IMG/VR virus record: IMGVR_UViG_3300042908_001001
Location: 12,534-76,533 of that record
Strand: one strand, 5' to 3'
Source: a virus
DNA: 64,000 nt
Shown here: positions 14,425-56,400 of the stretch, in pieces
Numbering within the stretch: position 1 is the stretch's first letter
Layout of the letters: the number at the start of each line of letters is the position of its first letter
Position numbers and translations under genes: made by a program
Notes under the pieces: generated by a model
Databases searched by the model: none
The model's input: only the letters and a program-made list of their open reading frames with translations
What the model was told of the DNA's origin: nothing

Positions 14425-14792
14425 CAAATCTATCCATTCCCGAACCCCCGCCTATCCCTAATGACAATCCTAGTATTCATGATTTAGTCGTGGAGGATTT
14501 AAAAAAGGATACTTACATTGTCCTAACAAAAGATATTTTAGATCGTAAAGCTTTTGGGCTTAAAAAGTATGGAGTTCCTTTACAGCAAGGCAATAGCCGA
14601 AACCCGTTAAGAGATGCTTTTCAAGAAGTATTGGATGCGATCTGTTACATCAAACAAGAAGCAATGCAGTCTAATAGTTTGGAGTCAAAAACGCTTTATT
14701 TTAAACTGATAGATATAGCAGAAGACCTTAAGGATTTAATCGAAAATAAACCAGAACAAGGAACAAATATTTCAGTATTAGGAGATAAGTAA
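14421..14792 (+). CDS. Probable all-alpha NTP pyrophosphatase (MazG-like)
   Basis: RKAFGLKKYG...DAFQEVLDAICY (ExxD); lies between dcd and thyA. Confidence 0.55.
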   Translation: MTNLSIPEPPPIPNDNPSIHDLVVEDLKKDTYIVLTKDILDRKAFGLKKYGVPLQQGNSRNPLRDAFQEVLDAICYIKQEAMQSNSLESKTLYFKLIDIAEDLKDLIENKPEQGTNISVLGDK

Positions 14793-33148: not shown

Positions 33149-33272
33149 AATATTTACCTATAGTTTTAAGTAAATATTAACCTGTTTATTGTGCTATCAT
33201 TAATTTATTCACGCTATCAATACTAAGATTTTTAACCGCCACTTAGATGCAACTATGGCGGTCTTTTATTGT

Positions 33273-33521
33273 TCATAAAAAATCAATCAATTTCAATCCT
33301 AATTCCTTCCGATTGTCTTCGCACTTTTTACTCTGACAACGAAAACGACTTAGCTTACCTTGCAAAGCCTTATCTTTTCTTTCTTGTAGTGTATTCCCGC
33401 ACAAAGGGCAATCTCGCTTTTCTATTTTTTGAATCTCTAAATATTTAGATTCATTAAATATTAAATCTTCCCATTCAGGATCGGGGATTGATACTTGTTT
33501 AATTAATTCTTGAGTGACCAT
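33273..33521 (-). CDS. Zinc-ribbon protein
   Basis: CPLCG...C....C. Confidence 0.55.
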   Translation of the reverse strand: MVTQELIKQVSIPDPEWEDLIFNESKYLEIQKIEKRDCPLCGNTLQERKDKALQGKLSRFRCQSKKCEDNRKELGLKLIDFL

Positions 33522-35499: not shown

Positions 35500-36549
35500 T
35501 TAAGTGAATGTGAGGGATAGCGTCATTTGAGTTGGTAAAGCCCCGTGTTTTTTAGTGTAAAGCTTTTCGGCTTTTGTGCGATAAGGTTCATCTAGTTTTT
35601 TTAGCCAATCAGAGAAAGTTGATTTACTTTTTCTAACATTGCAGGAATAACAACAAATCACAACATTGCTTTCAGAGTGCAATCCCCCTCTTGACAAGGG
35701 AATTAGATGATCTAGGGTTTTTAGTCTCCCCCTATCGTGTGCCTTATCAGCCATTTTTATCCCACAGTAAACACACAGGCTTGTCTCACAAAAAAGCTTT
35801 GTAATAACTTCTGGAGTGAGAGAGCCATCGCTCTGACTATTTATTCTCTCACGTCTTTTCCCTTGATTGCTATTAACTTCTTCCCTGTGAGTATGACGAT
35901 AAATCCTTGCGTATTCAACGATCTTTTCTTTATTGTTTTTTCTGTACTCCTGATTATATTTATTTATTGTTTCTTTATTCCCATAGTAATACTCTTTGCT
36001 TTTTTGGTTAAGAGCTTCTTTATTTCTTACATGATATTCTTTACTTTTTGCCAGCATTTGCTCTCTATTCCTATAATGATGATTAAGAGAGGATTGTCTT
36101 CTTTTTTCTTTGTTTTCCTCATAGTCCACTTTGCGCTTTTCTGTCAAAACGGATTTATTCTTTTCGCAGTACTCTTTTCTTTTTTGTGCTAGAGACTCTT
36201 TATTTGCTTCACAATATCTCTTGTGAGACTCCGCATTTCTTTCTTTGTTGACTTCATTGTATTTTCTTTTTCGTTCTTTTATGTTTTCTTTGTTTTTTTC
36301 GTAATACTCTTTTCTTTTTTCTGCCAATACTTCTTTGTTGTTTTCGTAATACTCTTTTTTCTTTTGACAAACTTTTTCTTTGTTGTTTTCTTTATACCTC
36401 CGATGAGACTCTTTTTCTTTTTCTTTATTCTTTTTATAATACTCTTTTCTTTTTTCCTTATTCTTTTCCCTGTATAGCTTGTCTGATAGTCGTTTTGCTT
36501 CTTTTCTTTTTTCTATCTTATCAATGTCGTTTTGTGCTAGAATATCCAT
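35500..36549 (-). CDS. HNH endonuclease with N-terminal 15-aa tandem repeats
   Basis: CVYCG...DHLIPLSRGG.H...N....C.SCN.RK; repeats of the KEYYE.NKE......type. Confidence 0.85.
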   Translation of the reverse strand: MDILAQNDIDKIEKRKEAKRLSDKLYREKNKEKRKEYYKKNKEKEKESHRRYKENNKEKVCQKKKEYYENNKEVLAEKRKEYYEKNKENIKERKRKYNEVNKERNAESHKRYCEANKESLAQKRKEYCEKNKSVLTEKRKVDYEENKEKRRQSSLNHHYRNREQMLAKSKEYHVRNKEALNQKSKEYYYGNKETINKYNQEYRKNNKEKIVEYARIYRHTHREEVNSNQGKRRERINSQSDGSLTPEVITKLFCETSLCVYCGIKMADKAHDRGRLKTLDHLIPLSRGGLHSESNVVICCYSCNVRKSKSTFSDWLKKLDEPYRTKAEKLYTKKHGALPTQMTLSLTFT

Positions 36550-39656: not shown

Positions 39657-39860
39657 CCACTTTTTTCACTCACTATCTTGACTCATATTTCATCCTCACA
39701 CCATAGCCATGTCAATCATTGACACAAGAAAACTCACTCATTTAAGCCCGTCCCCTATCTCGCTATAGTTTCTGCCTTCCGACTACCTAGCCCGCCTAGA
39801 ATTTAATCCTATGGCCAAATGGTGAGACATTGAGTAAAGCGATCGCATTACAGGTTCACT

Positions 39861-39951
39861 CTAAAAATTAATTTGATTAAATACTTGACAAGTACAAAAT
39901 ATATTGATAGACTTGGGATATACCAAGAAAACAAGAGAGGACGTAGTAATG
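39861..39951 (+). repeat. Cassette header type A, copy 1 (promoter plus RBS)
   Basis: ~90-bp near-identical to 40616-40707; TTGACA(39885)-17-TAGACT, AGAGG RBS, ATG 39949. Confidence 0.9.
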
Positions 39952-40131
39952 ACTACCAAATTTAACAAGTCTGAAATTAAATTGATTAATCAAATCAAAA
40001 AAGCAGGAGAGTTGATCATTTACAATGAACCTAAATTTTGGGATAAAGTGCAAAGAATGATAGATAAGAGTCCTGATGCTTTTTGCTACGAAGTTCTAAA
40101 TTCTGGATTAATAGTAATAACCCTTGCATAA
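39949..40131 (+). CDS. Small cassette-borne hypothetical protein
   Basis: Start re-called to the ATG after the header RBS. Confidence 0.65.
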   Translation: MTTKFNKSEIKLINQIKKAGELIIYNEPKFWDKVQRMIDKSPDAFCYEVLNSGLIVITLA

Positions 40132-40136
40132 CCACC

Positions 40137-40168
40137 ACCGCGATCGCCTATCTCGCTTCTGATAGGCA
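40137..40168 (+). repeat. HIP1-hairpin repeat, copy 1
   Basis: ACCGCGATCGCCTATCTCGCTTCTGATAGGCA, identical at 40931-40962; variants at 41796 and 42100. Confidence 0.9.
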
Positions 40169-40183
40169 AATTAAAACAATTTT

Positions 40184-40387
40184 ATGGAGAGTAAAGCAAT
40201 GTTTAATTATGTCGAGATTGATTGTTTCCGTCTAGAAGACAGTAAATTGTGTGTTGTCGACAAAGGCAGTGAAGGCTATTTTATGGTGATTACCTCTTTG
40301 TCAGGAGAGAACATCGAAAACGAAAAGCATAGACCCATAAATCAAGCATTGTATTACGCTTTACTGGAAAGCAACCAAGATGATTAA
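40184..40387 (+). CDS. Hypothetical protein
   Basis: ORF after the HIP1-hairpin repeat. Confidence 0.5.
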   Translation: MESKAMFNYVEIDCFRLEDSKLCVVDKGSEGYFMVITSLSGENIENEKHRPINQALYYALLESNQDD

Positions 40388-40619
40388 ATGTCCTAAATGC
40401 GATCGCCCCTACCGATGCCCTAGATGCGGCGGCGATCGCTTATGGCTTGCTGGTTTTGTTTACGATACCGCAAAATTTATCTGTAGTGATTGCAAATTCA
40501 AGTCTGCTCACTGTTTCTCCTGTAAAAAGGAAAAGCAGGAAACCGAGGCAATCAAAGCAGAGCTAAAGAAGCGAAAACCTTCTAAACCTAAACGCCGATG
40601 GGGAAACACAGGATTCTAA
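40380..40619 (+). CDS. Zinc-ribbon protein
   Basis: Four CxxC motifs. Confidence 0.6.
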   Translation: MIKCPKCDRPYRCPRCGGDRLWLAGFVYDTAKFICSDCKFKSAHCFSCKKEKQETEAIKAELKKRKPSKPKRRWGNTGF

Positions 40620-40707
40620 AAATTAATTTGACTAAATACTTGACAAGTATAAAGTATATTGATAAGCTTGGGATATACCAAGAAAACAAAGAGAGGACAC
40701 AGTAATG
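40616..40707 (+). repeat. Cassette header type A, copy 2
   Basis: TTGACA(40640)-17-TAAGCT, AGAGG RBS, ATG 40705. Confidence 0.9.
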
Positions 40708-40926
40708 ACCACCGCAACTATCCCCGCCAATATTGAAAAGCAAGTAAAGTTTTTAAATCAATCATTAATCAAAGGAAAGATTACAGTCGAGCTAATCATT
40801 GAATCTGTAAAGACCTATGCCGATTCTGACAACTACGAAAACGAAGACGTACTGGATGCAATGCTTTTCTGGTTAGAAGAAAAAATGACCCCCGAATCTT
40901 ACTCAGAACTTTGTGACTCACTTTAG
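40705..40926 (+). CDS. Small acidic cassette-borne protein
   Basis: Bounded by header A and the HIP1-hairpin. Confidence 0.65.
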   Translation: MTTATIPANIEKQVKFLNQSLIKGKITVELIIESVKTYADSDNYENEDVLDAMLFWLEEKMTPESYSELCDSL

Positions 40927-40930
40927 ATGA

Positions 40931-40962
40931 ACCGCGATCGCCTATCTCGCTTCTGATAGGCA
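40931..40962 (+). repeat. HIP1-hairpin repeat, copy 2
   Basis: Identical 32-mer to 40137-40168. Confidence 0.9.
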
Positions 40963-40990
40963 GTAAATTTATTTTTGAGGATTTAGTTAA

Positions 40991-41794
40991 ATGGAAGATC
41001 TGAAGGCTATTTTTAATGACTGGCTTAAACAACAACCTCAATCTTATATGCTGTCTCAACCAGTTAAAGAATTGTTATTTAAAGCTTTTTTGTTTGGTAA
41101 CGAAGAGGGTTATAAAAACTTGCCAAAAACCGATCCAGAAAATTACGATCATTTACTTGGCGTGATGCCCGATTCTGAAATTGCAAAACAATTTTCTATT
41201 TCTCGCCACTCTGTTTTATATAGAAGAAAAAAACTAGGGATTCCTGCCTACGATCCCCCTATACCATACGATCATTTACTTGGTACAAAACCAGATTCCG
41301 AAATTGCCAAAGATTTTGAGATGTCTGTTACGGCTGTACGCAATAGGAGGATAAGATTAAATATCCCTGCCTATAAAAACCCACCATTAAACATCCCTAT
41401 TGATAAAATCCCGCCATCGTATGATCATTTACTTGGCACAATGCCCGACTCGCAAATTGCGAAAGATTTTGGCACAACCAGACAATTAGTTCGATACAGA
41501 AGGAAAAAAAAAGATATCCCAGCGTTTGATCCTGTCCCAAAAATCGATCATTTGCTTGGCACAAAATCCGATCACCAGATCGCCAAGGAGGTGGGAACAC
41601 CTGTTTGCAATGTATCAAGAAAACGCCGAAAATTAAAAATAGATGTCTATGCCCCAGATTGCTTCTATGCCCATTTACTGGGAACGATGCCCGATACTCA
41701 AATCGCAAAAGATTTCGGGGTTTCCAGTTCATCCGTTCAGCAACAGAGATCGAAACTAGGTATCCCCCCTTACAGCAAAAAAACATCAAAATAG
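40991..41794 (+). CDS. Tandem HTH-repeat DNA-binding protein (5 repeats)
   Basis: Five copies of (Y)DHLLGT.PDS.IAK.FG.....V..RR.KL.IP.Y. Confidence 0.75.
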   Translation: MEDLKAIFNDWLKQQPQSYMLSQPVKELLFKAFLFGNEEGYKNLPKTDPENYDHLLGVMPDSEIAKQFSISRHSVLYRRKKLGIPAYDPPIPYDHLLGTKPDSEIAKDFEMSVTAVRNRRIRLNIPAYKNPPLNIPIDKIPPSYDHLLGTMPDSQIAKDFGTTRQLVRYRRKKKDIPAFDPVPKIDHLLGTKSDHQIAKEVGTPVCNVSRKRRKLKIDVYAPDCFYAHLLGTMPDTQIAKDFGVSSSSVQQQRSKLGIPPYSKKTSK

Positions 41795-41795
41795 T

Positions 41796-41825
41796 CCGCG
41801 ATCGCCTATCCCAACCCGATAGGCA
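41796..41825 (+). repeat. HIP1-hairpin repeat, copy 3
   Basis: CCGCGATCGCCTATCCCAACCCGATAGGCA. Confidence 0.85.
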
Positions 41826-41856
41826 ATAAATTAATTTATTTTGAGGATAAAATCAA

Positions 41857-42078
41857 ATGATAGCCATTGACACAGCAATAGTTTTTTCTCTTTACTACAT
41901 GATAGTCGGAGTCCTTATCAGCACTCATGCGCGAAAAATACTCAAGCCAACAAATCATACAGAAAGTCTTGGCGCGACTGTCTTGGTAGTTATATGGCCC
42001 ATCGTATTAATCTTTTATGCAGTCGGATTCATGGAAGGGATGATAAAAGCCATTAAAAGACAAATGAGAGACCAATAA
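41857..42078 (+). CDS. Two-TM membrane protein
   Basis: GAGG RBS; hydrophobic helices with WP motif. Confidence 0.6.
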   Translation: MIAIDTAIVFSLYYMIVGVLISTHARKILKPTNHTESLGATVLVVIWPIVLIFYAVGFMEGMIKAIKRQMRDQ

Positions 42079-42099
42079 AGCACGAAACCCAAAAACTTA

Positions 42100-42135
42100 A
42101 CCGCGATCGCCTATCCTCACCCGATAGGCTTTTTA
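42100..42135 (+). terminator. HIP1-hairpin repeat, copy 4, with U-tract
   Basis: GCCTATC-CTCACCC-GATAGGC followed by TTTTT. Confidence 0.7.
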
Positions 42136-42214: not shown

Positions 42215-42283
42215 AATGAGAATGATTATCATTCTCATTTTGTTCCATAGATGGTTTCTATGATGATAATGATAATCATTCTC
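42215..42283. promoter_or_regulatory. Two Fur-box-like sites flanking an ATAG-N7-CTAT palindrome
   Basis: AATGAGAATGATTATCATTCTCATT (42215-39); GATAATGATAATCATTCTC (42265-83, 18/19 to the classical Fur box); CATAGATGGTTTCTATG between them. Confidence 0.7.
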
Positions 42284-42436
42284 ATTTTTAATACCCTTTA
42301 CGCTATATATAGGTTAGGGAGCTTGTGTGTATTTGAAAACATTTAGAATCCGAGTAGAAATGTTTTGAGATTGTAGCCTGTTTTTAATTGACAAGCATAT
42401 TTTATAATGTTAAGATGGAAAATAAAAAGGTAGATT

Positions 42437-42715
42437 ATGTTTCAATGCTGTGGCGTTTTGATGGCTAAGAATGGCCTTACCAAGGGCGGTAATCAAAAGT
42501 ATCGCTGTAAAGTTTGCAAGAAAACTAAAGTAGATAGTCCTCCCAGACTTAGTCGTGAAGAGTATCAGAGACGATGGAGGGAAGAAAACCCTGATAAGGT
42601 AAGTCAGTGGCAAAAAGACTATTTTAAACGTCATCCCGAAAAGTACGAAGAAAAGAAAAAGAAAGAAACTGAAAGACAAAGACTGGCTAGACAAGCTAAA
42701 AAACAAGCCAGTTAA
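42437..42715 (+). CDS. InsA-like zinc-ribbon protein
   Basis: CC....KNG...GG.QKYRCKVC; own promoter TTGACA(42388)-17-TAAGAT. Confidence 0.6.
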   Translation: MFQCCGVLMAKNGLTKGGNQKYRCKVCKKTKVDSPPRLSREEYQRRWREENPDKVSQWQKDYFKRHPEKYEEKKKKETERQRLARQAKKQAS

Positions 42716-42743: not shown

Positions 42744-43145
42744 ATGGTCAAAGTCATAAGTCACAAGAAAGAAGTATTAGGACGGTATCAAAGGGCATTT
42801 AAAGCAAGTGCCGAGGATTTTGATACCGCCATGACTACCGTGATTAGAGAACCTAGAGACTGGCCGAGTGGATTCGGGACGACAATCAGGCGTGGCAGTG
42901 GTGAAACTGTAGTCGGTAGCTATCGTAATATTGTGGATTATGGCAATTTGAGAGATAGCCAGTTGATGAGTGTTGAACAATTTAAGGCGATTTATTCGTG
43001 GGATGGTATGGGCGAGACACCCGCCGCTATCGTATTTTTCGGAGCTACCTTGAGAAACGGAACCCAGATCCCGCCCAGAGACTGGGTATCAATGGCATTG
43101 AGTGAAATTAATTTGAGTGAGAAATTTAAAGACAATTTAGATTAA
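42744..43145 (+). CDS. HK97 gp10-like neck/tail completion protein
   Basis: RNIVDYGNLRDSQ, GA.......P.RDW; GTTAATATT upstream. Confidence 0.7.
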   Translation: MVKVISHKKEVLGRYQRAFKASAEDFDTAMTTVIREPRDWPSGFGTTIRRGSGETVVGSYRNIVDYGNLRDSQLMSVEQFKAIYSWDGMGETPAAIVFFGATLRNGTQIPPRDWVSMALSEINLSEKFKDNLD

Positions 43146-43465
43146 ATACTTGACAAGGATAAATTATGTTGTTAAGATGGTTAGTATAAACCAAGTAAAG
43201 GAATTAATCAGATGACCACTTCAAACGAAATTAAAAAAGCAGTCAAGGCAATCACAGGATTGAAAGTTAGAATCAAAGATAATAAAAAATTTTATACCAT
43301 TAGCAACAGCGAAAGTCATCTTCCTAATGGGTTTGGTCACTTTGCGGAAGAATTAAAATCTATGTTTGCAGTAACCCGTCTTGATGGTTGTTCTTTTGAC
43401 ATTTTGAAGTAAAAACAAAATCAATCAACTTTAACCCTTGCCCTAAAAAGTAAGGGTTAATATTT
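43144..43465 (+). mobile_element. Type-B expression cassette 1 (promoter-RBS-ORF-terminator)
   Basis: Header AAATACTTGACAAG..TAAGATGGTTAGTATAAACCAAGTAAAG; footer TAAAAAC.AAATCAATC..TTAACCCTTGCCCTAAAAAGTAAGGGTTAA. Confidence 0.75.
43212..43412 (+). CDS. Cassette-borne hypothetical protein
   Basis: Fills cassette B1 exactly. Confidence 0.65.
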   Translation: MTTSNEIKKAVKAITGLKVRIKDNKKFYTISNSESHLPNGFGHFAEELKSMFAVTRLDGCSFDILK

Positions 43466-43489
43466 TATAAAACAATCCCACCTTGTTTT

Positions 43490-43759
43490 ATGGAATTATC
43501 TCAAGCATTAACGCCCTTTATCACGTTCAACGGTTGCCAAGCCTCGCAATTAATGGTTAGGCATTTAAGGTATGGTGATAAAAGTTTTTATATTGTTAGA
43601 AGACAGTTACTCAAGAAAGGGACAAAACCCTATTATGTTTGCGAGATATTCGGGACTAAATTTTGCTCTATCTCCCTTGAGCAAATATTAAAAGACATTG
43701 AAAGCGTTTACCCCTGTAAAAATTATAAATATTATGGCAATAACACCGTTACAGCTTAA
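43490..43759 (+). CDS. Hypothetical protein
   Basis: ATG 25 bp after GGTTAATATT. Confidence 0.4.
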   Translation: MELSQALTPFITFNGCQASQLMVRHLRYGDKSFYIVRRQLLKKGTKPYYVCEIFGTKFCSISLEQILKDIESVYPCKNYKYYGNNTVTA

Positions 43760-44156
43760 GTCCGACCTTGAAAAAGTATTAGAAGTTACCCGTCATCCCA
43801 CCACCAAGAAAGTGCTTACCTTTGGATTGGTTGGTAAATACACTTATCAGGCTAACGGATTTATTGATACCGCGATCGCGATCGGTTCAGCCAAAAGCGG
43901 TGTCACAGTCGAGGGATTAGAGATTGTAATTGATTTTCCTAAAACCGAATCATCTTGTAGTACCGACAAATACGTGCAATTAACAGAGAAATTTACCGTT
44001 AGGATGATTCAACGTAGTGGCGAGAATTTATACCCTGCTAGGGAGATTATTAAAAGGCTAGGGTTAAGGGATTATACCGACTCATCTATTATTGGGGATG
44101 TGATTGGTAATTATCCCCAGTATGTTTTCAGTTTTAGATACTCGGAAGGATTTTAA
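43734..44156 (+). CDS. Probable tail terminator protein
   Basis: Position directly before the tail tube gene; ATG re-called to 43734. Confidence 0.55.
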   Translation: MAITPLQLKSDLEKVLEVTRHPTTKKVLTFGLVGKYTYQANGFIDTAIAIGSAKSGVTVEGLEIVIDFPKTESSCSTDKYVQLTEKFTVRMIQRSGENLYPAREIIKRLGLRDYTDSSIIGDVIGNYPQYVFSFRYSEGF

Positions 44157-44211
44157 AAGTTGTGGTTATTATTTAATAGCCTATTTTTAAAACTCTAGAG
44201 GTAAAATTTTT

Positions 44212-44997
44212 ATGGCTTCCGACTTTGAATTGTTTAGTAATCCGATTACAAGCAAAAACTCAGTTATTAATGCAGGATCAAAATTACTATTGTGTGCATT
44301 GCCTACTGGGTTTAGCGGTAAGACTGGGCCTCCTGAAATTACTCTCACACAAAAAACATCTACGGCGGTTTCGGTTGGGGGTACTAGCCTGACGATTACT
44401 CCCAGCGAGGATGTGATTTTAGCTGATGGTGTGATTTTGTATTTTACTGGTAACAAAAAATTTGTTGTTAACGGGACTCAGACCGTTACTGGGACTGATT
44501 TTGTGTTGGCAATCGATCCCGCCACAACTGGGAATACCCTTAGCGGTGGTGAAACTTGCCTAACGTGGGGGGTTTTGGCTTTAAACTCTCCAACCGATAT
44601 CCCCTTAAACCAAGCCTCCAACATGGAGGGTCGTGGCGATCTTAACTACGGATTCCAAAAAGGGCAAAATCTGGTTGGTACAACTTTCGCGCCCCAAATT
44701 ACCTGTTTTACGACTAATGACGATATTGCCTATGATAAGCTTATCAAGCCCTACGATGGGTCTGGTAATACTATTTTTGCAATGATTTGGAGGGGGGATG
44801 GTCGATGGGCGGCTGGTGAAGCATTAGTCGTTAATCTGACTGAAAACGGGGCTGAATCAACCCAGATCAAGCCTACTTTCACGCTTGACTTCCGACCCCC
44901 TTGGGTTATGGGGATCAAGTATTCGGAGATGACCGATCCTCAAAAGGCAGAAGCCAACTTGATTATGAAAAAATCTGGACTGCCCTTGCTTGCTTAA
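44212..44997 (+). CDS. Major tail (tube) protein
   Basis: Gly/Thr-rich beta protein, GEALV.NL.E.G......TFTL; lies upstream of the frameshifting chaperone; followed by a terminator hairpin. Confidence 0.7.
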   Translation: MASDFELFSNPITSKNSVINAGSKLLLCALPTGFSGKTGPPEITLTQKTSTAVSVGGTSLTITPSEDVILADGVILYFTGNKKFVVNGTQTVTGTDFVLAIDPATTGNTLSGGETCLTWGVLALNSPTDIPLNQASNMEGRGDLNYGFQKGQNLVGTTFAPQITCFTTNDDIAYDKLIKPYDGSGNTIFAMIWRGDGRWAAGEALVVNLTENGAESTQIKPTFTLDFRPPWVMGIKYSEMTDPQKAEANLIMKKSGLPLLA

Positions 44998-45067
44998 GTT
45001 TTACTCTTTACCCTCTCTTAACCCTTACTCTGTAGGGGTTTCTTTATATCTATATTTTATTTTCCCT

Positions 45068-45510
45068 AAATACTTGACAAGTATAAAATAAGGGTATAAG
45101 ATGGTTAGTATAAACCAAGCAAAGAGAGATTAAAGATTATGGATTTTCAAAAAGAAATCACAATCAAAGGATGCACCATTAAATTAATCCCATCATCCGA
45201 GGTTCCAGTATATGATCGTTGTCAAGGGAAAAGGATTATGGGGGCTGGCTTTTTCCCTATCCCTGAAACAAATTTAAAAGCATTATGTGTTTACACTCGG
45301 AGTTACGGAAAAAAGAGCTATTCTTTCGACTTTGGAGATACATGGAGTACGGTTAAAGAACACGCTTTTAGTTATTTCTTGGATTCATTAAAAGCTCAAA
45401 TCGAAAATGAATTATACAGCACAACAGAAGGGACTTTATACGTCAAAGAAGCCTAAAAACAAATCAATCAATCCTTAACCCTTGCCCTAAAAAGTGAGGG
45501 TTATCATTTT
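45068..45510 (+). mobile_element. Type-B expression cassette 2
   Basis: TTGACA(45074)-17-TAAGAT; same header and footer as B1 and B3. Confidence 0.75.
45139..45456 (+). CDS. Cassette-borne hypothetical protein
   Basis: Fills cassette B2 exactly. Confidence 0.65.
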   Translation: MDFQKEITIKGCTIKLIPSSEVPVYDRCQGKRIMGAGFFPIPETNLKALCVYTRSYGKKSYSFDFGDTWSTVKEHAFSYFLDSLKAQIENELYSTTEGTLYVKEA

Positions 45511-45512
45511 TT

Positions 45513-45746
45513 ATGCTTAAACTACAATCACCTAACGGAAAAGTAATTTTATGGGGTGCTACTGTAAGCGATCGCACTGTATCGGCTGAGATAGCGTTTA
45601 TCGGGTCGTCAATTCAAAACCCGATGATTCCACTATCAAAACCTAACAGCAAGACTAGGGAGTGTTTTGTTAGACTGCCAGACAACTTTTTGATGCAAGC
45701 TTTGCCCATGAAAGGGAATAATATTACGCTTGAAATTATTGATTGA
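45513..45746 (+). CDS. Hypothetical protein, possibly tail-associated
   Basis: Lies between cassettes B2 and B3. Confidence 0.5.
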   Translation: MLKLQSPNGKVILWGATVSDRTVSAEIAFIGSSIQNPMIPLSKPNSKTRECFVRLPDNFLMQALPMKGNNITLEIID

Positions 45747-45749
45747 TTA

Positions 45750-46170
45750 GAATGCTTGACAAGTACAGAATAAGGGGATAAGATGGTTAGTATAAACCAA
45801 GTAAAGAGAGATTAAAGATTATGAACGCTAGAAAATACGACGACATTCAAACAAATACAGTTACTCGCTACGAAATCGCTTTGATGGAAGGCGAAAAAAT
45901 AATCAAAGTTTTAGGTTACACAGCAAAGAAAACAAAGCAAGCTTTATTCAATACAGTAAGTAATGGGGATGACTTAACAAAATACTTTCAAGAATCAGAA
46001 TTAGATTGCGAATATTTTTATGATAAAAAATGGGGGATCGTATTTTGCCCACGATTAAGAGTCGCATTTTCTGGTAGAACAGAGAGACAAGTGGCAACAG
46101 AAAAAGTATTTGCATAAAAACTAAATCAATCCACTCTTAACCCTCGCCCTAAAAAGTGAGGGTTATTTTG
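45750..46170 (+). mobile_element. Type-B expression cassette 3
   Basis: TTGACA(45756)-17-TAAGAT; header near-identical to B2; footer TTAACCCTCGCCCTAAAAAGTGAGGGTTA. Confidence 0.75.
45821..46117 (+). CDS. Cassette-borne hypothetical protein
   Basis: Fills cassette B3 exactly. Confidence 0.65.
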   Translation: MNARKYDDIQTNTVTRYEIALMEGEKIIKVLGYTAKKTKQALFNTVSNGDDLTKYFQESELDCEYFYDKKWGIVFCPRLRVAFSGRTERQVATEKVFA

Positions 46171-46220
46171 TTTTAATAATTATGGTTATTATTTATTGTC
46201 GTTAAATATTTAAAACAATT

Positions 46221-46943
46221 ATGGTACTTGCAGTAAATAGTAATCAGAGAGCGCGATTTGTAAAAAGTTTAGGGATTGACGAAAATAGTCTCCCTTTTGT
46301 ATTATTCCCTAAACAATCTTTAATTCAGTCGGTTAGTAACTTAGTGACTGAATCGGTCGCTGGTTTTGATATTCCCATTATTAATGATTTTACGCCTTCC
46401 GAGAAACTCCTTTTTACCGCGATTGATTTAAAAGCCCGTCCTCTCTATATTGAATATCAGGAAGTCAATGAGGATCTGGCAGAAGCATTGTCTTTGGTCG
46501 TTACCGCCGATGGTTCGCCATTAGTTCCCGATGGAATTGAACCGATTAAATTCATCACTCCTGATTCTGAATTTGTGCAATCAGAGATTTATACACAAAT
46601 CACAAAATCACAGTCTTACAAGCGATTTAAACGTGACAACCGTGAGCTATTTGACGATCAGGATCAGGTCTATACGAAACTGATTATCCTTGACCTCACA
46701 ATGGGACGTGCCAAAGTTGCTTTATTCCTTTCTACTCGGATTGATACAACTTGGTTTGATCGTGCAAACGAGTTAAGTGTTGAGCAAATTAAGGAGATTG
46801 TGCAATTTATCCAGAAGGAAGGTAACGGGGGTAAAACGGAAGATGAACCAACAGAAGAAGACGAAACTAAAGGAGAGGTAGTTACCGAAAAAAACGACTC
46901 CAACAAGAAATCGAAAGATGGTCAGATCACTACTGGGAACTAG
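46221..46943 (+). CDS. Tail assembly chaperone (gpG-like)
   Basis: Acidic protein between tail tube and TMP; slippery A AAA AAC at 46889-46895. Confidence 0.7.
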   Translation: MVLAVNSNQRARFVKSLGIDENSLPFVLFPKQSLIQSVSNLVTESVAGFDIPIINDFTPSEKLLFTAIDLKARPLYIEYQEVNEDLAEALSLVVTADGSPLVPDGIEPIKFITPDSEFVQSEIYTQITKSQSYKRFKRDNRELFDDQDQVYTKLIILDLTMGRAKVALFLSTRIDTTWFDRANELSVEQIKEIVQFIQKEGNGGKTEDEPTEEDETKGEVVTEKNDSNKKSKDGQITTGN

Positions 46944-47302
46944 CGATCGCGCTTCCTAACGATGATAGATTTGATTATAGAAATTTTGCCAATCAATCAC
47001 CTAGATTAATTAGGCAAGCACTCAATCAAATCTATCAAAAAAGGAACCTTGACCAGTATTCTACGGCTTTAGGGATTTCAACTTATGCAAACGCTAATAG
47101 AGGAGAAAATAGTCAGCCTATTGAGTTTTATCAATTCTTACCTCATCCATTAGTTTGGAGACAAAATAATACTCAGAAGAAAATAAATATTAGTAAGAAT
47201 ACAGCGATTCAATTCTTAGCTGATTACTCTAGCTTTACCTCTGAAATGTTATCCGTCTTTGATGAATGGATGGATGAGATAAGAATGACAGCAAGCGGTT
47301 AA
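46895..47302 (+). CDS. -1 frameshift extension of the tail chaperone (gpT-like)
   Basis: 135 open codons in the -1 frame (RLQQEIERWSDHYWELAIAL...FLPHP...MTASG*) with no early ATG. Confidence 0.75.
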   Translation, partial: RLQQEIERWSDHYWELAIALPNDDRFDYRNFANQSPRLIRQALNQIYQKRNLDQYSTALGISTYANANRGENSQPIEFYQFLPHPLVWRQNNTQKKINISKNTAIQFLADYSSFTSEMLSVFDEWMDEIRMTASG

Positions 47303-47334
47303 CCCTATTATTTATTTGGTAGGGTTTTCTATTG

Positions 47335-50438: not shown

Positions 50439-53400
50439 ATGGCGATCGCACTAGAAGAGTTAATCCTACAATTTTCAATCGACTCGGACGGACTAGAGAA
50501 AGGTCTGGACTCAGTTTCGGCTAGGGCAAGAGCCAAGGCTAAGGAGATCGAGGGAATGGCGATCGCTCCTAAAGTCGATTTGAAGGGTTTGCACGACCTT
50601 AACAAGCTTTTGGATATAAAACAGAGGCATATAAAGGAAACGGCTGATTTTGCCAAGCGCACCCCCATTGTGATGGGTGTGGATGTTAGTCAGGTTAAGG
50701 AGGCGAGAAAGGAATTACAGGGATTAAAAGCTGATTTAGGGATGAGTGGAGGTAATCAGACGATCAGGGTTAAGGTTGAGCATGATTATAAAGTCGATAT
50801 TCGAGAGTCCAATCGGGATATTGTTAGCGCGATTAATGGGCTAAGAAACGAGTTCAAAGAAGTAGCAAAATCATCTAAAAAAACAGATACTCCAAAGCAA
50901 CAAAAAGACCCTAGTAGTGATTTAGCTAAAGAGATTAAGCAGGGCTTTAATCAAATGAAGTCTGGCAATATTTTTGAGGGAATTGGCAAAATCGCCTTAA
51001 GTCCTGCCAAAGCAATCTTTACGGGATTCTATGAAGGGATAGGTTTAACCGCGTCTTCAAAGCTTACCAAGGGTGCTATTAAAAGTATTGAAAGTGAATG
51101 GAATTTTACCCTAGATGCACTAGGTAAAGGGACTGGAAAAGCTTTTGGTAGTATCGGTAAGAACGCGGCTGATTTGTTGTTGCATTCGATGGGGACATCT
51201 ACAGAACAAATTAATGGGATGTTTGAGGATTTATCCCAAGGCTTTAATGATATTTTTGATGAAAAAGAAGCTAGAACGCGAATCCAAAATATAGGGGATA
51301 CTATTAACAAAACCCTAACAAATGCTTTTAAGAATGGCACGTTTATTAGTGACGATATTGCAGAATTAAAGTCTGCTATCAACGCCTATAAGGGATTAAG
51401 GCGGGAAAATATTGACAAAAGAAGAAAGCAGTCTGTAGATGAAACGGCTAGACAGGCAACAGAACAGTCGGGAATGTATGACGCTCCTGATTTATCTGGT
51501 AAAGAAAAAGCGGTATTATATGCTGGTGGGTTTGCAGGTAAAAACAGTAAAACTCATGAACAAAATGCGGTAATGCTTGGCAAGATTTATGGAGAAACTG
51601 CCCAAGTATTTCAGTCTGGTAATGATGCAACTAATACCGATACAAGTTCAAAAGATAATCCAGTCAAATGGATGGTTGAAGCGGCTCGGAAAATTACTAA
51701 ATTGAATCTGAGTGGTGAAGTTAATCCAGACGTTGTAAAAATGGTGGCTCAGGCATTAGCTATTAGGGAAAAGAATCCTCATATTACGATTGATTTAGTC
51801 GGACATAGTGCGGGTGGCTTTATTGCTAAAGACGCGGCGGCTATACTTGAAAGATTAGGTGTTGAGAACGTCAGGGGTGTGGGTATTGGAACTCCTGACG
51901 GGGTAATGGGAAGCATTGGACAGGGTAACTATCAAGGGATACTAGGAAAAGACGATACGGTTAAAAAGATAGTAGATAACGCGGCTGTTTTAGGGTTAAC
52001 AAATCCATCAAATGAAGCCAGTCAAAATATGAGTGGGATTGCTTCTCACTCTATGATTGATTATCTATCAAATCTTGACGTTCAAAGCTTATTAACGGGA
52101 CAAAGTGGAATTACTAAAGATGAATTATTAAAAGGATTGGGTGACGATGTAACGGGTGCGGTTGCGACTGATATCAAGAAAAATATTCATGGGGTATTAA
52201 AAGAAGTCGGAGAAGGAACCGTATTGATCGCGTCGGCTGTCATCAAAGAATCGGTTAAACAGATTCAAAATCTAGTTCCCGTTGCCAAAGAAGTGGGTGA
52301 GGGTGCGTTATCTGTTGGACAGGGGATGGGAATTGGAACTAAAAAAGTAGGGGTAATCGCATTAAGCGAAAGAAGAAAAGGCATTGCTAGTAATGAATCA
52401 GTTAGACGTGCAATGGCAATGTCTGAAAATGAAGAAGCAATTCCAAGTGATAAGCCTATTGTTTTTGCGGCGGGTGGTGTTATTGGGATGCACGGTATCG
52501 GGGGAAAATTTGTTAAAAAAGATATTGAAAAAACAATTGGAAAAGATGCCGCGACCATCGTTGATTTTGCTACACCTAATACTGATTTTATTGCAAAAGA
52601 AAAAGGCGATAGAGTAAATAGTAAAAAATTTAACGAGGCTTTAAATTCGCCAATTGGAAAATGGATTGCTTCTACTACAAATGAATTAAAAACAAGATAC
52701 AGAAAAGAAGTAGAAAGCATTTTAGGAAAGGCAATAACGGCCGAGCTTTATAGTTACACCGCAAAAGATATTTTTCGGTTAAAACTACCCACTAGTGTTT
52801 ACTTAACGGGAAGCAATGAAGATTCTGTTAAGTTAGCCGCTAAAGTAATTGCAATTAAAAAAGAAAATGAAGACGCTTTAATTACTTTAATCGGACACTG
52901 TGGTGGTGGCACGATGGTAGAAGAGGCATTAGCTATTGTCGAATCTGCTGGTTATGGTAAAAACGTTACCGCAATGGGTATCGGTTCCCCTGACTTGGGG
53001 GTAAGTGCGGGGGCTGAAAAATATAAGCGATTTGTTGGGAATGAAGACGAAGCGGCGATCCGTCTTGGGAGAATTTTTAAACAAGAGCAATCAAACATAC
53101 AAAGTCAAGGCATGATTGCTTATTTAGCTACTCATGAATCCTTAGAATACTTAAGACATCCTGAAATTATCAAAGCTCTACCAGACCCACTCAAAAAAGC
53201 ATCTGTTGGGAAAAACGTAAGTTTCCAAAAAGACTTGATGTCTAAATATATTGAAAATATTCAAAAAGACCCTGATAAATTTCACTCTAGCAAGCAATCA
53301 TTTAATATGATTGAAGAAGATTTGAAGTATGCTAGACAGTTTTTAGATGAGTTCAAGAATGAAATAGATGATGATTTTAGAAGCGCAATAAATCAAATTC

Positions 53401-56400
53401 ACGATCATGTTCAAGAGTTAATTAAAAAACATCCCTTGTCTCAAGAAAGCATGATGTCAGACCCGATTTATCAGATCATGGCGGTTAATCAAGCTATTCA
53501 TCAAGGGGCGTTGAAACAGCAAGAAATATTACTTCCGTCTGTTCAAACAATTCCTTTAAGACAAAATATTTCCGATGTAAATACCAAGGCTATTGATATT
53601 ACTGCAATAGAAATAAAAGAGGATATCGCCGCTATTGAGACAGTACAAGAACAAATAGCAAAAATAAACAAAACTATCAACGAAGAAACTAAAAAACTAT
53701 TAACGGGTGGGACTCCCACAAACCCAGATTTTAATGTTAAAGAACTATCTAAACTGGGGACATCTTTATTAATTCCCAAGGAAGATGGGGTGGGTTTTTA
53801 CGGGGCTACAGACCTTCGGAAAATGAAACGTGAGGGAATGATTGATTTTATTTCCCAAAATATTCAGCCAGATGCCCTCAAAGAAATTATTGCTAACAGA
53901 GGAAAGCCCCTTCGTAAATTTGACAATGCAGACATTGCAAAATACAAAGAAGCGTTAGATACAAGATTGCGAGAAATGATTAAAAACGCGCAATCTTTTG
54001 AAGACATTGAAAATATTCAATCGACGGCATTAACACTCATTAGTAGCATTCAACAAACAAAAGTATTAGCCAATGTCAATCCTAATCAAATTAGGCAATT
54101 ATCGGGCTACGAATCCCAATTTAAAAAGCTAACTAATCTTGAAGGAATTAAGTTTGAAGCAAAAGGGATGGGTGTTGAATTACCTGAAACAATCTCAAAA
54201 CATTGGGATAAAACGATTGATCATATTTCTGGCAAGATGGAAGACTTGGAAGAAAAATCGGCTGAAGTTGGTTATGACGTTCAACACGAATTAGCGGAAG
54301 GCTCCCCTGGTCTTACTCAACGGATTAGAGACTACTGGGATAAAACAGTTAAGCATATTCAAGGAAAAATAGGAGAATTAAATAACAGTGACACGAGCAA
54401 CTTAGAGCCTAAATCTGGACTATTTGAAAACCTAAGAACACAATTCCCCATTGTCGATCAAGGCATCGAAAAGCTAAGAACCTTAAAATCTACTATCGTC
54501 ACATTAGGCGCGGCTGGTTTAGGAATTATCGGACTTGTCTTAATCGGAAAACAACTTTCTAATATTGCGATTGAATCCGTCAAAGTTTACCGTAATTTTG
54601 AATCTATTTTTATCGCCTCTAAGATGATCAAGAATGGTGATCAATTTTTAGGAGATGTCAGAAAACAGGTTAAAGCTTTGGGTGGTGATCTTGAATCTAC
54701 GATGCGTCAAGGTCAACAGTTTGTAACTGGTTTGCAGGGTACAAATTTAGAGCGTAATGCGTCCTCAATGTTCTTAGATAGCAGTAAAGCCTTAAAATCT
54801 TTAGGGCTACAAAATCAGCAATACGACGCGGCTATACTCGCATTAAAGCAAACCGCTTCAAAAGGTCGCGTGTCCCTCGAAGAAGTTTCGGGTCAGTTAG
54901 GGGAGTCCGTACCAGGAGCATTAAATATCGCGGCACAAGCAATGCAAACTAACGTTCAAGGTTTTATTCAGATGGTAGAATCTGGAAACCTTTTAAGTGA
55001 AGAATTCTTGCCTAAATTCATTGCTAAATTAAAATCACAAACCGCGTTTTTAGAACCTGAAATCAAGAAATCGTTAAATGCTTCATTGGGACGGTTAGGG
55101 GCATCTCAAACTGAATTACAGGTTGGCATTGGAGCCGCTATTTCACCCGCTATCATTCCCACTATTGACTTAATCAGCAAAGGATTAAACCTGATTAACG
55201 ACAATATGGATAAAGCGGTTATCACTGCTCAAATTTTAGCCGTTGCCCTTGCCATGCCCGCCGCCAATCAAGGTATTTTATTAATTGGGAAAGCTTGGCA
55301 ATTTGTAACAGCTAATATGATAGTCGCTAAGACGGCGGCTGACGCTGTAAACCAATCTTTAATGATAGGCAAAACCCTTTTAACGGGAGGAGCATACATC
55401 GGAGCGGCTATGGCAATAACTTCCGTCATCCAAGGGGCAATGTACTTGATGGAAGGCGGTTCTAAGAATATTAAAGACTTGAATGATGTGATTGACAGTT
55501 CAAGCAATGCTATGGCTGACAATTACGCTAGAGCCTATGGTTTTGCCGAAAAATTAGAAGATAAGGCGAGAGGTACTGGCAATTTCTTGTTAGATGGAAT
55601 TGATGGATTAATTAAGGGAATGAATGAGTTTAATCAAAAATTTACTCCCTTTTTACCTAATCTCAAGACTTACGCTGATCGCAGAAAAGAACAGGATAAC
55701 GACAATCTTGATATGGCAGTTGTCAAGATTGAATCTAACTCGTTCTACTCCCAAAACTTAGGTAACTCCGAAAAGGTCAGACAATATTTAATTAATTCTA
55801 AAAAGTCAGAAGATGTAAGAAAAACATTAGTCGGGCAGATTAGTGTTGCCAGAATGACCGACCCTGTAGGCAACGAAAAACTGATTAATAGTTTACAGGA
55901 TCAACTTTACGGATTAAACGGTTTGGTCCAGAAAAAAGAAGAATTAGATAACCGATTTGTTACGGGTGGCGCGTCTGGTATAGAGCAATCAATTAAGAAT
56001 ATTGAAAGTGCTATTCAAGAGGCAAAAGACTTAGGACGTGGTGATTTACTTCCCAGATTAAATCAAGAGTTGATAACCCAAAAATCAAACCTTGAAAAAA
56101 TCAAAGATATTAATCAGCAAGTGACAAGTGGGTTGAACGATCAACGGTTGGCTTATATTGAATTAAATGCACAGATAGCAAGGGGTGAACAGTTACTACA
56201 ATCCCGAATTGTGAGACGGGAAACCGCTATTTTAGCAAGACAGGCTAGAGGTGAAATTGGGTCTAATGTTGCATCAAATGAATTAGCTAAAGCTGATTTT
56301 GCTTCTCAGAATGAAACTTTAAACCGATTAATTAATAGCCAAAAGTCAACGCTTAATTACCTAAGAACTCGCCTTGATGTTGGCACAACTACCACGATTG

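What the first reader, a model, noticed from the sequence alone, without database searches (positions are those of the whole stretch)
43144..46195. Repeat-bounded single-gene expression cassettes inserted in the tail operon, with footers that may restart late transcription
Seen: three units (43144-43465, 45068-45510, 45750-46170) share a ~70-bp header (TTGACA-17-TAAGAT promoter, GGTT-AGTATA-AACC mini-hairpin, purine-rich RBS, ATG) and a ~50-bp footer (TAAAAAC..AATCAATC..TTAACCCTYGCCCTAAAAAGTRAGGGTTA). Similarity stops at the start and stop codons, and the three cargo ORFs appear unrelated. The units fall between neck, tail-tube and chaperone genes. The 3' arm of the B1 footer reads GGTTAATATT (an exact late-motif match), B2 reads GGTTATCATT, and B3 is followed by GGTTATTATT. 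Inference: a cassette-exchange system in which conserved flanks let cargo be swapped by recombination, while the terminator doubles as a late promoter so insertion is non-polar. The cargo would be strongly expressed early, so host-takeover or anti-defence roles are candidates. It resembles morons and the promoter/stem-loop repeats of T4-like phages, but lies inside a structural operon.
Basis: partly seen in the sequence, partly recalled or inferred. Interest (0 to 1): 0.85.

Follow-up and report, generated by a model that had tools for sequence, protein, structure and literature searches.

The report
Moron-like gene cassettes sharing promoter and terminator
Three small unrelated genes of unknown function in an uncultured cyanobacterial phage each carry the same host-type promoter and the same terminator and sit between late virion-type genes; this is a fresh example of the known "moron"/PeSL-like cassette design, and actual cargo swapping remains unproven.

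Summary
Three units (43145-43460, 45069-45503, 45751-46165) share a 67-70-nt header and a ~50-nt footer. The header is TTGACA-17-TAAGAT, then a 16-bp inverted repeat and a leader. The footer is the TAA stop, a conserved spacer and a 10-11-bp hairpin with a T-rich tail. The ORFs (66, 105, 98 aa) are unrelated by BLASTP and profile comparison.

These are autonomous, moron-like transcription units set among genes headed by the phage's -35-less late motif GTTAWTATT, upstream of the tape-measure gene. They belong to a local family of six related promoters and two terminator families spanning 39.9-47.3 kb.

- The "mini-hairpin" is weak as RNA and overlaps the predicted start site, so an operator is more likely.
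- A terminator doubling as a late promoter is supported by sequence for B1 only.
- Cargo exchange is only indirectly supported. B1 cargo is 94% identical on a contig that appears, by matching length and source, to be the one whose neighbouring 261-aa protein is 61% identical. B3 cargo is 86% against 66% on another such contig. B2 cargo has no homolog anywhere. B1's promoter is chimeric.
- Relatives' DNA could not be fetched.
- The "neck/tube/chaperone" labels are unverified.

This scan has reported PeSL-like cassettes in other phages before. Verdict: new member of a known kind, with modest interest.

The parts
43145..43211 (+). Header B1: -35 TTGACA 43150-43155, -10 TAAGAT 43173-43178, 16-bp inverted repeat TGGTTAGTATAAACCA 43178-43193, leader to the ATG. 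Its 5' half is more like the family-A promoters (34/41 to A2) than B2 (31/41).
43212..43412 (+). Cargo B1, 66 aa, no family or fold assignment. A 94%-identical copy (P0006) sits on a 56,725-bp contig.
43410..43460 (+). Footer B1: TAA stop, conserved AAAACAAAATCAATCAA spacer, 11-bp-stem hairpin 43431-43460 (-14.2 kcal/mol).
43456..43464 (+). Late motif GTTAATATT formed by the 3' arm of the B1 hairpin plus its tail, 34 nt before the ATG of the 89-aa gene (43490-43759).
45069..45138 (+). Header B2: -35 45074-45079, -10 45097-45102, inverted repeat 45102-45117, leader/RBS AGAGAGATTAAAGATT.
45139..45456 (+). Cargo B2, 105 aa, ORFan with no homolog outside its own 90% cluster.
45454..45503 (+). Footer B2: TAA, spacer, hairpin 45476-45503 (-12.4 kcal/mol), tail TCATTTTTTA running into the ATG of the 77-aa gene at 45513.
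45751..45820 (+). Header B3: -35 45756-45761, -10 45779-45784, inverted repeat 45784-45799. It starts 4 nt after the stop of the 77-aa gene.
45821..46117 (+). Cargo B3, 98 aa, member of a wider family of ~95-aa proteins (46 representative clusters). Confident model (pLDDT 84.7) with no known fold match.
46115..46165 (+). Footer B3: TAA, spacer, hairpin 46138-46165 (-15.2 kcal/mol), tail TTTTGTTTTA.
46185..46193 (+). Separate late motif GTTATTATT, 36 nt before the ATG of the 240-aa gene (46221-46943).
39860..40167 (+). Family-A cassette 1: header 39860-39948 (TTGACA-17-TAGACT, palindrome CTTGGGATATACCAAG), 60-aa ORF 39949-40131, HIP1-linked hairpin 40146-40167.
40615..40961 (+). Family-A cassette 2: header 93% identical to A1, unrelated 73-aa ORF 40705-40926, and a 32-nt hairpin footer block 100% identical to A1's (40931-40962 vs 40137-40168).
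42388..42416 (+). Related lone promoter TTGACAAG-N15-TAAGATGG without the inverted repeat, driving a 92-aa Cys-rich, Lys-rich ORF (42437-42715).
   Evidence: (D8)
45020..45040 (+). Terminator of the 261-aa gene, with the same AACCCT...GGGGTT stem family as the footers. A fifth member lies at 47301-47326.
44212..44997 (+). 261-aa late-type gene between B1 and B2, with its own late motif at 44165 and its own terminator. The 'tail tube' label is unverified.

Best explanation
The three units are autonomous, moron-like transcription units of an uncultured, probably temperate, tailed phage of a HIP1-rich (cyanobacterial) host.

How each unit probably works (inferred from sequence):
- Each is read by the host's primary-sigma RNA polymerase from a TTGACA-17-TAAGAT promoter.
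- A 16-bp inverted repeat lies across the predicted start site. It is invariant in all three copies while the -35/-10 spacer varies. It most likely serves as a common operator, so that three unrelated small genes form one regulon.
- A strong hairpin terminator ends each unit and insulates the next late gene from this transcription.

The neighbouring genes each have their own -35-less late motif GTTAWTATT, probably read with the phage's own sigma-like protein. That is why terminator-bearing inserts are tolerated there. In B1 the hairpin's 3' arm supplies the first bases of that motif.

The shared flanks belong to a local family of six related promoters and two terminator families spread over 39.9-47.3 kb. 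They most likely arose by local duplication and recombination. They provide 50-70-bp homology patches at which accessory genes can be gained, lost or replaced, as with T4-type PeSLs.

Shown here: the anatomy, the unrelatedness of the cargo, the local family structure, and uneven conservation of cargo versus neighbours. Inferred: promoter and terminator activity, the operator role, expression timing and the recombination role.
For: - Exact repeats far beyond chance, and only three copies in the genome.
- Promoter and terminator scans and folds.
- A stem position changes T-A to T-G to C-G among the three footers, keeping the pairing.
- The 23-nt block covering the -10 and inverted repeat is 100% identical, while the -35/-10 spacer between B1 and B2 differs at 7 of 17 positions.
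- The inverted repeat starts at the last base of the -10 hexamer, so its 5' arm lies upstream of any likely start site. As RNA it folds at only -3.2 kcal/mol.
- Family-A headers carry a different palindrome (CTTGG-N6-CCAAG) at the same place.
- Cargos are unrelated: BLASTP E>0.8, hhalign probability below 1%, and A1 versus A2 gives no alignment.
- GTTAWTATT occurs 20 times against 4.2 expected, with 13 sites 26-59 nt before a same-strand ORF start. These include the fibre, portal, protease/capsid unit and tape-measure genes.
- A Sigma70_r2 protein is encoded at 3616-4485.
- All five AACCCT...GGGTT hairpins on the + strand lie in 43.4-47.3 kb, and all four GCCTATC...GATAGGC hairpins lie in 40.1-42.1 kb.
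- B1's promoter core is chimeric.
- Cargo GC is 33-36%, against 35-45% for the flanking genes.
- B1 cargo is 94% identical on a 56,725-bp contig where the 261-aa protein is 61% identical. Of 28 proteins that could be looked up, only the capsid pair and B1 cargo have mates at 90% or more there.
- B3 cargo is 86% identical against 66% for the 261-aa protein on a 3,185-bp contig, and B2 cargo is found nowhere else.
- Large serine recombinase and Ant-like protein.
Against: - No transcript data, so promoter, terminator, operator and timing are all predictions.
- Co-location of proteins on relatives' contigs is inferred from equal contig length and source, not seen in DNA.
- No empty site and no alternative cargo between the same flanks was observed.
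- High cargo conservation could reflect purifying selection or a fast-evolving 261-aa protein rather than transfer.
- Both terminator families also end non-cassette genes, so the footers are not cassette-specific.
- B1's tail (TATTTTATAA) is a weaker U-tract.
- The family-A hairpins mostly lack a T-tract.
- No repressor has been identified for the proposed operator.
- The virion roles of the flanking genes rest only on the shared late motif and on proximity to the tape-measure gene.
Confidence: 0.6

Rival explanations
1. Regulon only. The shared flanks are locally duplicated regulatory modules kept alike by selection for the same expression pattern or by gene conversion. They play no part in gene mobility, and the cargos were acquired by unrelated illegitimate events.
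For: Both promoter and terminator families are strictly local and are graded by distance: B1's promoter resembles its neighbours A2 and P42388. The same hairpin families terminate non-cassette genes. Functional blocks are invariant while the spacer drifts. No copy of the header or footer was found in the viral contig collection.
Against: Similarity boundaries that coincide with the stop codon and, for B2/B3, the start codon are hard to obtain by independent illegitimate insertions. The chimeric B1 header implies crossovers inside headers. Cargo presence differs among relatives, and B1 and B3 cargos are much better conserved than the adjacent 261-aa protein.
Confidence: 0.3
2. One reading: a dedicated cassette-exchange system whose terminator doubles as a late promoter, so that insertion into a late operon is non-polar. 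The cargo is strongly expressed early and has takeover or anti-defence roles.
For: The B1 hairpin's 3' arm plus tail gives GTTAATATT at the usual 34-nt distance from the next ATG, and it is the best site outside the PWM training set. All cassettes abut late-type genes. The PeSL precedent exists (PMC2839356, PMC4122927).
Against: B2's variant GTTATCATT scores within shuffle noise and lies only 14 nt from the ATG. B3 needs a separate motif 20 nt downstream. The late genes here each have their own promoter even where no cassette is present (42711, 44165, 50406), so non-polarity does not need the footer. No defence or anti-defence family matched. Header and footer are not similar to each other, so a single cassette cannot excise as a circle by homologous recombination.
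Confidence: 0.2
3. The inverted repeat acts as a 5'-terminal RNA stem-loop that stabilises the cassette mRNAs, rather than as a DNA operator.
For: The repeat is invariant in the three B headers, and family A has a register-shifted counterpart whose 5' arm differs while the 3' ACCAAG is kept. 5' stem-loops are known mRNA stabilisers (general knowledge).
Against: The 5' arm begins at the last base of the -10 hexamer, upstream of the expected start site, so it would not be in the cassette's own transcript (sequence). The fold is only -3.2 kcal/mol and no better than shuffles.
Confidence: 0.15
4. The cargos are diverged paralogs from duplication of one whole cassette.
For: The flanks are clearly homologous, and three of the five cassette ORFs (A1, A2, B1) begin with MTT.
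Against: No similarity by BLASTP or profile comparison. Lengths are 66, 105 and 98 aa. Flanks at 74-93% identity are incompatible with ORFs diverged beyond detection. MTT starts also occur at three gene starts outside the cassettes, so six in the genome in all.
Confidence: 0.03
5. The units are transposon-like or MITE-like mobile elements.
For: Repeated, sharply bounded units.
Against: No terminal inverted repeats. Header-footer complementarity is at chance level for the three B units and A2; A1's 8-nt match is nominal (3% of shuffles). No target-site duplications in the flanks and no transposase nearby.
Confidence: 0.02

Closest known systems
Morons of lambdoid/HK97-like phages (Juhala et al. 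2000; Hendrix et al. 2000; from my own knowledge)
   Same: A single accessory ORF with its own promoter and its own terminator, placed between genes of the late/virion region. Lower GC than most neighbours. The phage looks temperate.
   Different: Here several morons share near-identical promoters and terminators, and the promoters carry a common inverted repeat. Expression from a prophage is untested. Adjacency of the flanking genes in relatives could not be checked.
PeSLs (promoter-early stem-loops) of T4-type phages (Arbiol et al. 2010, PMC2839356; Comeau et al. 2014, PMC4122927)
   Same: Repeated sigma70-like promoters plus stem-loop terminators that run from the upstream stop codon to the downstream ATG. 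They are associated with ORFans and provide transcriptional insulation from late genes. A few PeSLs also occur inside virion modules. Recombination inside the repeats is proposed, and B1's chimeric header fits this.
   Different: This is not a T4-type phage. Promoter and strong stem-loop are not one composite intergenic element but two separate conserved flanks of each ORF, and the cassettes are separated by late genes rather than arrayed in a hyperplastic region. There are 3 (+2+1) copies rather than ~50. Header and footer are dissimilar, so single-cassette mini-circles are not expected. No indel between close relatives was seen.
PeSL-like promoter/terminator cassettes noted earlier in this scan in other uncultured phages (e.g. 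e1-3410187, e1-5946285, e1-5815500)
   Same: Small unknown genes bracketed by repeated promoter and terminator units, with PeSL as the closest known system.
   Different: Different phages and unrelated sequences. Here the units are few, split into header and footer, and interleaved with late-type genes. For several of those cases relatives' DNA showed gain and loss; here it could not be obtained.
Start-associated sequences and stoperators of mycobacteriophages (Pope et al. 2011; Brown et al. 1997; from my own knowledge)
   Same: Short conserved sequences placed at fixed positions relative to start or stop codons of several genes, some of which act as repressor sites.
   Different: Those are 13-17-bp single motifs without a full promoter and terminator, are present in many more copies, and do not bracket single ORFs.

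Membership tests
Moron | ORF flanked by its own promoter and its own factor-independent terminator | tested here: met
   10/12 sigma70-type matches with 17-nt spacing for all three units. The footers are the top three terminator-like sites, at -12.4 to -15.2 kcal/mol. Prediction only.
Moron | Inserted between two genes that are adjacent in related phages | tested here: inconclusive
   Relatives' DNA could not be obtained. Indirectly, B2 cargo has no homolog, although a contig of matching length and source (3,185 bp, ENA) holds homologs of both the 261-aa gene and B3 cargo.
Moron | Nucleotide composition differs from the neighbours | tested here: met
   Cargo GC is 33.3, 36.2 and 34.0%, against 34.8-45.0% for six flanking genes. 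Cargo GC3 is 27-32% against 35-43%. The difference is modest.
Moron | Expressed from the prophage while late genes are silent | not testable with these tools
PeSL (T4-type) | Repeated sigma70-consensus early promoter ending at the SD/ATG of an ORF(an) | tested here: met
   B2 cargo is an ORFan.
PeSL (T4-type) | Stable stem-loop within or next to the promoter as one composite intergenic element | tested here: not met
   The stable hairpin lies after the ORF, 200-320 nt from its own promoter, and is separated from the next cassette's promoter by late genes. The repeat next to the -10 is only -3.2 kcal/mol.
PeSL (T4-type) | Host phage is a T4-type myovirus with hyperplastic regions | tested here: not met
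   Capsid protein is below 30% identical to any GenBank phage and the top listed matches are not T4-type phages. Phage_portal_3 portal, large serine recombinase and a 3,488-aa tape measure.
PeSL (T4-type) | Insertions, deletions or replacements between close relatives map to the repeats; mini-circles form | tested here: inconclusive
   Only cluster bookkeeping is available. The chimeric B1 header suggests a crossover. Circles are not testable here.
Intrinsic terminator | G+C-rich stem-loop followed directly by a T-run | tested here: met
   Stems of 10-11 pairs with 4-5 G-C pairs. Tails are TTTTGTTTTA (B3), TCATTTTTTA (B2) and TATTTTATAA (B1, weaker).
Phage late promoter of this genome (GTTAWTATT) | Exact motif 26-59 nt upstream of a same-strand gene start | tested here: inconclusive
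   Met for the B1 footer (43456, 34 nt; PWM 14.1, best non-training site). Not met for the B2 footer (one mismatch, 14 nt, score 11.6 within noise). B3 has a separate motif at 46185. That the motif is a promoter at all is an inference.
Transposon/MITE-like element | Terminal inverted repeats and target-site duplication | tested here: not met
   Header-footer complementarity is at chance level for the B units. The inverted-repeat scan shows no terminal pair. The flanks differ.

The most novel reading that the evidence does not exclude
A PeSL-like exchange system has arisen independently in a non-T4, temperate-looking cyanobacterial phage lineage in a split form. Separate conserved header and footer would allow double-crossover replacement of single accessory genes between co-infecting phages. 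A shared palindromic operator would place all cargos under one regulator. The terminator's 3' arm would be co-opted as the start of the phage-sigma late promoter, so that cassettes can sit between virion genes without polarity.
Probability: 0.2. Interest if true: 0.55.

Novelty: new member of a known kind. Interest (0 to 1): 0.3.

Why it matters
Promoter- and terminator-bracketed accessory genes are where phages keep host-interaction functions such as exclusion, defence and counter-defence. Shared flanks give a handle to find such genes by sequence alone and to study how they move. This locus offers three (plus two) unknown small proteins that appear co-regulated, one of which (B3) belongs to a wider family with a confident but unmatched fold. 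It also offers a clear candidate operator and a candidate late promoter/sigma pair in an unstudied cyanobacterial phage lineage. If exchange at the flanks were shown, it would extend the PeSL principle beyond T4-type phages. As it stands, this is a clean but unsurprising example of a design that this scan has met repeatedly.

Tried and rejected
One alignment was too diverse to search with.
- Exact header and footer patterns gave no hit in viral contigs.
- blastn and tblastn against GenBank phages gave no hit for the region, the 261-aa protein, or the B1 and B3 cargos.
- The genome search does not draw relatives for virus records.
- Function of the cargos: Pfam, PHROGs and PADLOC gave nothing. 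The ESM Atlas gave nothing usable for B1 and B2. The PDB sequence profile gave nothing. The B3 model found no fold match in PDB Foldseek, BFVD or VIA wide (best Z 3.6).
- Identity of the 261-aa 'tail tube': the PDB profile gave nothing, the AF2 model failed (pLDDT 33.6), and PHROGs at E up to 5 gave nothing.
- The idea that the header repeat ATGGTTAGTAT is a second, late-type promoter was rejected as unsupported. PWM scores of 8.6-10.2 are below the shuffle top-five range of 11.3-13.8.
- Header-terminator complementarity (anti-termination or inverted-repeat ends) is at chance level for the B units.
- The footer-like stretch at 33264-33300 is a chance resemblance next to an unrelated hairpin.
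- Rfam gave no credible family in 39.5-47.5 kb.
- An integron-like reading was rejected: the cassettes carry their own promoters, there is no attC-like site, and the only recombinase is a large serine recombinase about 36 kb away.

Full report
CONTEXT. The window is bases 12534-76533 of a 76.5-kb IMG/VR virus record that is 88% complete. It is a tailed phage. It encodes:
- a portal (Phage_portal_3) and a DUF2213 head-maturation protease;
- a major head protein at 30263-31183, with fibre and baseplate-like proteins;
- a 3,488-aa tape-measure protein at 50439-60905;
- a large serine recombinase and an Ant-like protein, so it is probably temperate.

It carries 40 copies of the cyanobacterial HIP1 octamer GCGATCGC in 64 kb, which points to a cyanobacterial host. 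No cultured phage is close: the capsid protein is below 30% identical to any GenBank phage.

- The 23-nt header core and the 29-nt footer core each occur exactly three times, against 0.00 expected in shuffles. They occur nowhere else in the record.
- Against B2, the headers are 74% (B1) and 93% (B3) identical over 73 nt, and the footers are 80% and 85% identical over 59 nt.
- Alignments anchored on the start and stop codons show where similarity begins and ends. It starts at about TAAATAC just upstream of the -35. It runs to the ATG in B2 and B3, and to about -17 in B1. It vanishes inside the ORFs, resumes exactly at the TAA stop, and ends at the last base of the hairpin.
- Each header reads TTGACA-17 nt-TAAGAT (10/12 consensus matches). 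The three footers are the three best terminator-like sites in 38-51 kb. They fold at -12.4 to -15.2 kcal/mol, z -3.3 to -5.0.
- One stem position goes T-A (B1), T-G (B2), C-G (B3), so pairing is kept.

THE CARGOS ARE UNRELATED.
- BLASTP of each cargo against all ORFs of the genome finds only itself. B1 against B2 gives E 6.2.
- A 41-sequence profile of the B3 family matches B1 and B2 with probability below 1%.
- B3 cargo is a real protein family: 46 representative clusters at E up to 1e-3 and a confident model at pLDDT 84.7. It has no fold match.
- B2 cargo is an ORFan among 5.8 billion clusters.
- No Pfam, PHROG or PADLOC family matches any of the three.

- Two further cassettes, A1 (39860-40167) and A2 (40615-40961), have 93%-identical headers and a 32-nt hairpin footer block that is 100% identical. 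Their ORFs are unrelated.
- A lone promoter at 42388 has the same -35 and -10 but no inverted repeat.
- All six promoters share (AAATAC)TTGACAAG.
- B1's promoter core is closer to A2 (34/41) than to B2 (31/41), yet it carries the B-type -10 and repeat. It is therefore a chimera.
- The terminator families are local too. All five AACCCT...GGGTT hairpins on the + strand lie in 43.4-47.3 kb, and two of them end non-cassette genes. All four HIP1-linked GCCTATC...GATAGGC hairpins lie in 40.1-42.1 kb, and two of those also end non-cassette genes.
- The footers are therefore a subfamily of the region's general terminators.

THE 'MINI-HAIRPIN'.
- As RNA it is -3.2 kcal/mol and indistinguishable from shuffles.
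- It begins at the last base of the -10 hexamer, so its 5' arm would lie upstream of a normal start site and would not be in the cassette's own transcript (inference from spacing).
- The 23 nt covering the -10 and the repeat are identical in all three copies. In contrast, the -35/-10 spacer of B1 and B2 differs at 7 of 17 positions.
- Family A has a different 16-bp near-palindrome, CTTGGGATATACCAAG, at the same place.
- A conserved palindrome over the start site is the classic position of an operator. I take that as the more likely role, at moderate confidence and with no regulator identified.

LATE MOTIF AND THE DUAL-USE FOOTER.
- GTTAWTATT occurs 20 times against 4.2 expected. Thirteen sites lie 26-59 nt upstream of a same-strand ORF start. 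These include the fibre, portal, protease/capsid unit and tape-measure genes, and also the 133-, 89-, 261- and 240-aa genes around the cassettes.
- A Sigma70_r2 protein is encoded at 3616-4485.
- The cassettes' neighbours are therefore co-regulated with virion genes. That supports 'late genes', but not the specific labels neck, tube and chaperone. For those, nothing was found and the model failed.
- I built a PWM from 12 sites, excluding the cassettes. It ranks the B1 footer site first among non-training sites, with a score of 14.1 against a shuffle best of about 13.8.
- The B2 footer variant scores 11.6, within noise, and lies only 14 nt from the ATG. B3 uses a separate motif 20 nt past the hairpin.
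- The 'terminator doubles as late promoter' idea is therefore plausible for B1 only.
- Because late genes here carry their own promoters even where no cassette is present, non-polarity is a property of the region rather than of the footer.

RELATIVES.
- DNA of relatives could not be obtained (see Tried and rejected). Exact-sequence and homolog look-ups give contig lengths, which I used as fingerprints. This is an inference, not an observation.
- On a 56,725-bp Logan/ENA contig, the capsid protein is 91% identical and the adjacent 252-aa protein is at least 90%. B1 cargo is 94% identical, with 4 of 66 residues different. The 261-aa protein is only 61% identical.
- None of the other 25 proteins that could be looked up has a mate at 90% or more there.
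- On a 3,185-bp ENA contig, the 261-aa homolog is 66% identical and B3 cargo is 86% identical.
- B2 cargo, which lies between those two genes in this phage, has no homolog anywhere.
- Cargo content therefore varies among relatives, and two cargos are far better conserved than the structural gene beside them. This fits accessory cassettes with their own history. It could also reflect selection, or an unusually fast-evolving 261-aa protein.

OTHER CHECKS.
- Header and footer are not complementary beyond chance in the B units, and no inverted-repeat ends exist.
- Cargo GC is 33-36%, lower than most neighbours at 35-45%.
- No Rfam family is credible in the region.

COMPARISON WITH KNOWN SYSTEMS.
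- By definition (own promoter, one ORF, own terminator, between late genes) these are morons.
- The sharing of flanks among unrelated ORFs is the hallmark of T4-type PeSLs (PMC2839356, PMC4122927). Those papers describe sigma70-like promoters with stem-loops running from the upstream stop codon to the downstream ATG. They also describe insulation of late virion genes, association with ORFans, crossovers between the -10 and the ATG, and a few copies inside virion modules.
- The differences are as follows. The phage is not T4-type. The promoter and the strong hairpin are two separate flanks rather than one composite element. There are few copies, interleaved with late genes. Header and footer are dissimilar, so a single cassette cannot loop out.
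- This scan has already reported PeSL-like cassettes in other uncultured phages.

VERDICT. This is a new member of a known kind, and interest is modest. The most useful leads are the candidate operator, the B1 terminator/late-promoter overlap and the B3 protein family.

Noticed in passing
window 39860-42129: A second cassette family. Two units share a 93%-identical promoter header with the palindrome CTTGGGATATACCAAG and a 100%-identical HIP1-linked hairpin (ACCGCGATCGCCTATCTCGCTTCTGATAGGCA) around unrelated 60- and 73-aa ORFs. Two more hairpins of the same family end the 267-aa and 73-aa genes. Most lack a T-tract.
   Followed up: partly
window 40991-41794: A 267-aa protein made of five tandem ~45-aa helix-turn-helix repeats (weak hits to HTH_AsnC-type, Sigma70_r4_2 and HTH_7), sitting amid the cassettes. 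It is a candidate multi-site DNA binder and a possible regulator of the repeated promoters.
   Followed up: partly
window 42215-42286: A long inverted repeat with 19-bp arms (DNA fold -21.8 kcal/mol, z -6.6) in the 358-bp non-coding gap upstream of the lone promoter at 42388. The Rfam mir-7359 hit there is spurious. Function unknown; an origin, operator or recombination site is possible.
   Followed up: partly
window 3616-4485: A 289-aa protein with a Sigma-70 region 2 domain (28.2 bits against a cut-off of 24). It is a candidate phage sigma factor for the -35-less GTTAWTATT motif that precedes virion genes.
   Followed up: partly
window 9719-10597 (-), 22513-23430 (-), 14792-15616 (+): A TET-associated glycosyltransferase, a 2OG-Fe dioxygenase and a thymidylate-synthase-family protein. 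Together they suggest a DNA base hypermodification pathway.
   Followed up: no
whole window: Forty copies of the HIP1 octamer GCGATCGC in 64 kb at 38% GC (well under one expected from base composition, my estimate), pointing to a cyanobacterial host.
   Followed up: partly
window 9261, 26081, 39949, 40705, 43212, 48271(-): Six gene starts read ATGACNACN (Met-Thr-Thr), including cassette ORFs A1, A2 and B1. This looks like a phage-wide preference at translation starts rather than header homology.
   Followed up: partly
window 50439-60905: The 3,488-aa tape-measure protein also shows weak lipase/thioesterase-like (residues ~440-485) and endolysin-like (~2340-2440) segments.
   Followed up: no
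window 35924-36460 (-): A 45-nt periodic repeat inside the 349-aa ORF 35500-36549, giving a Lys/Glu-rich repetitive protein.
   Followed up: no
window 45499-45515: The 77-aa gene between B2 and B3 starts 10 nt after the B2 hairpin, with no Shine-Dalgarno sequence and no canonical late motif. A -10-like TATCAT lies 6 nt before its ATG, so a leaderless transcript or terminator read-through would be needed to express it.
   Followed up: no
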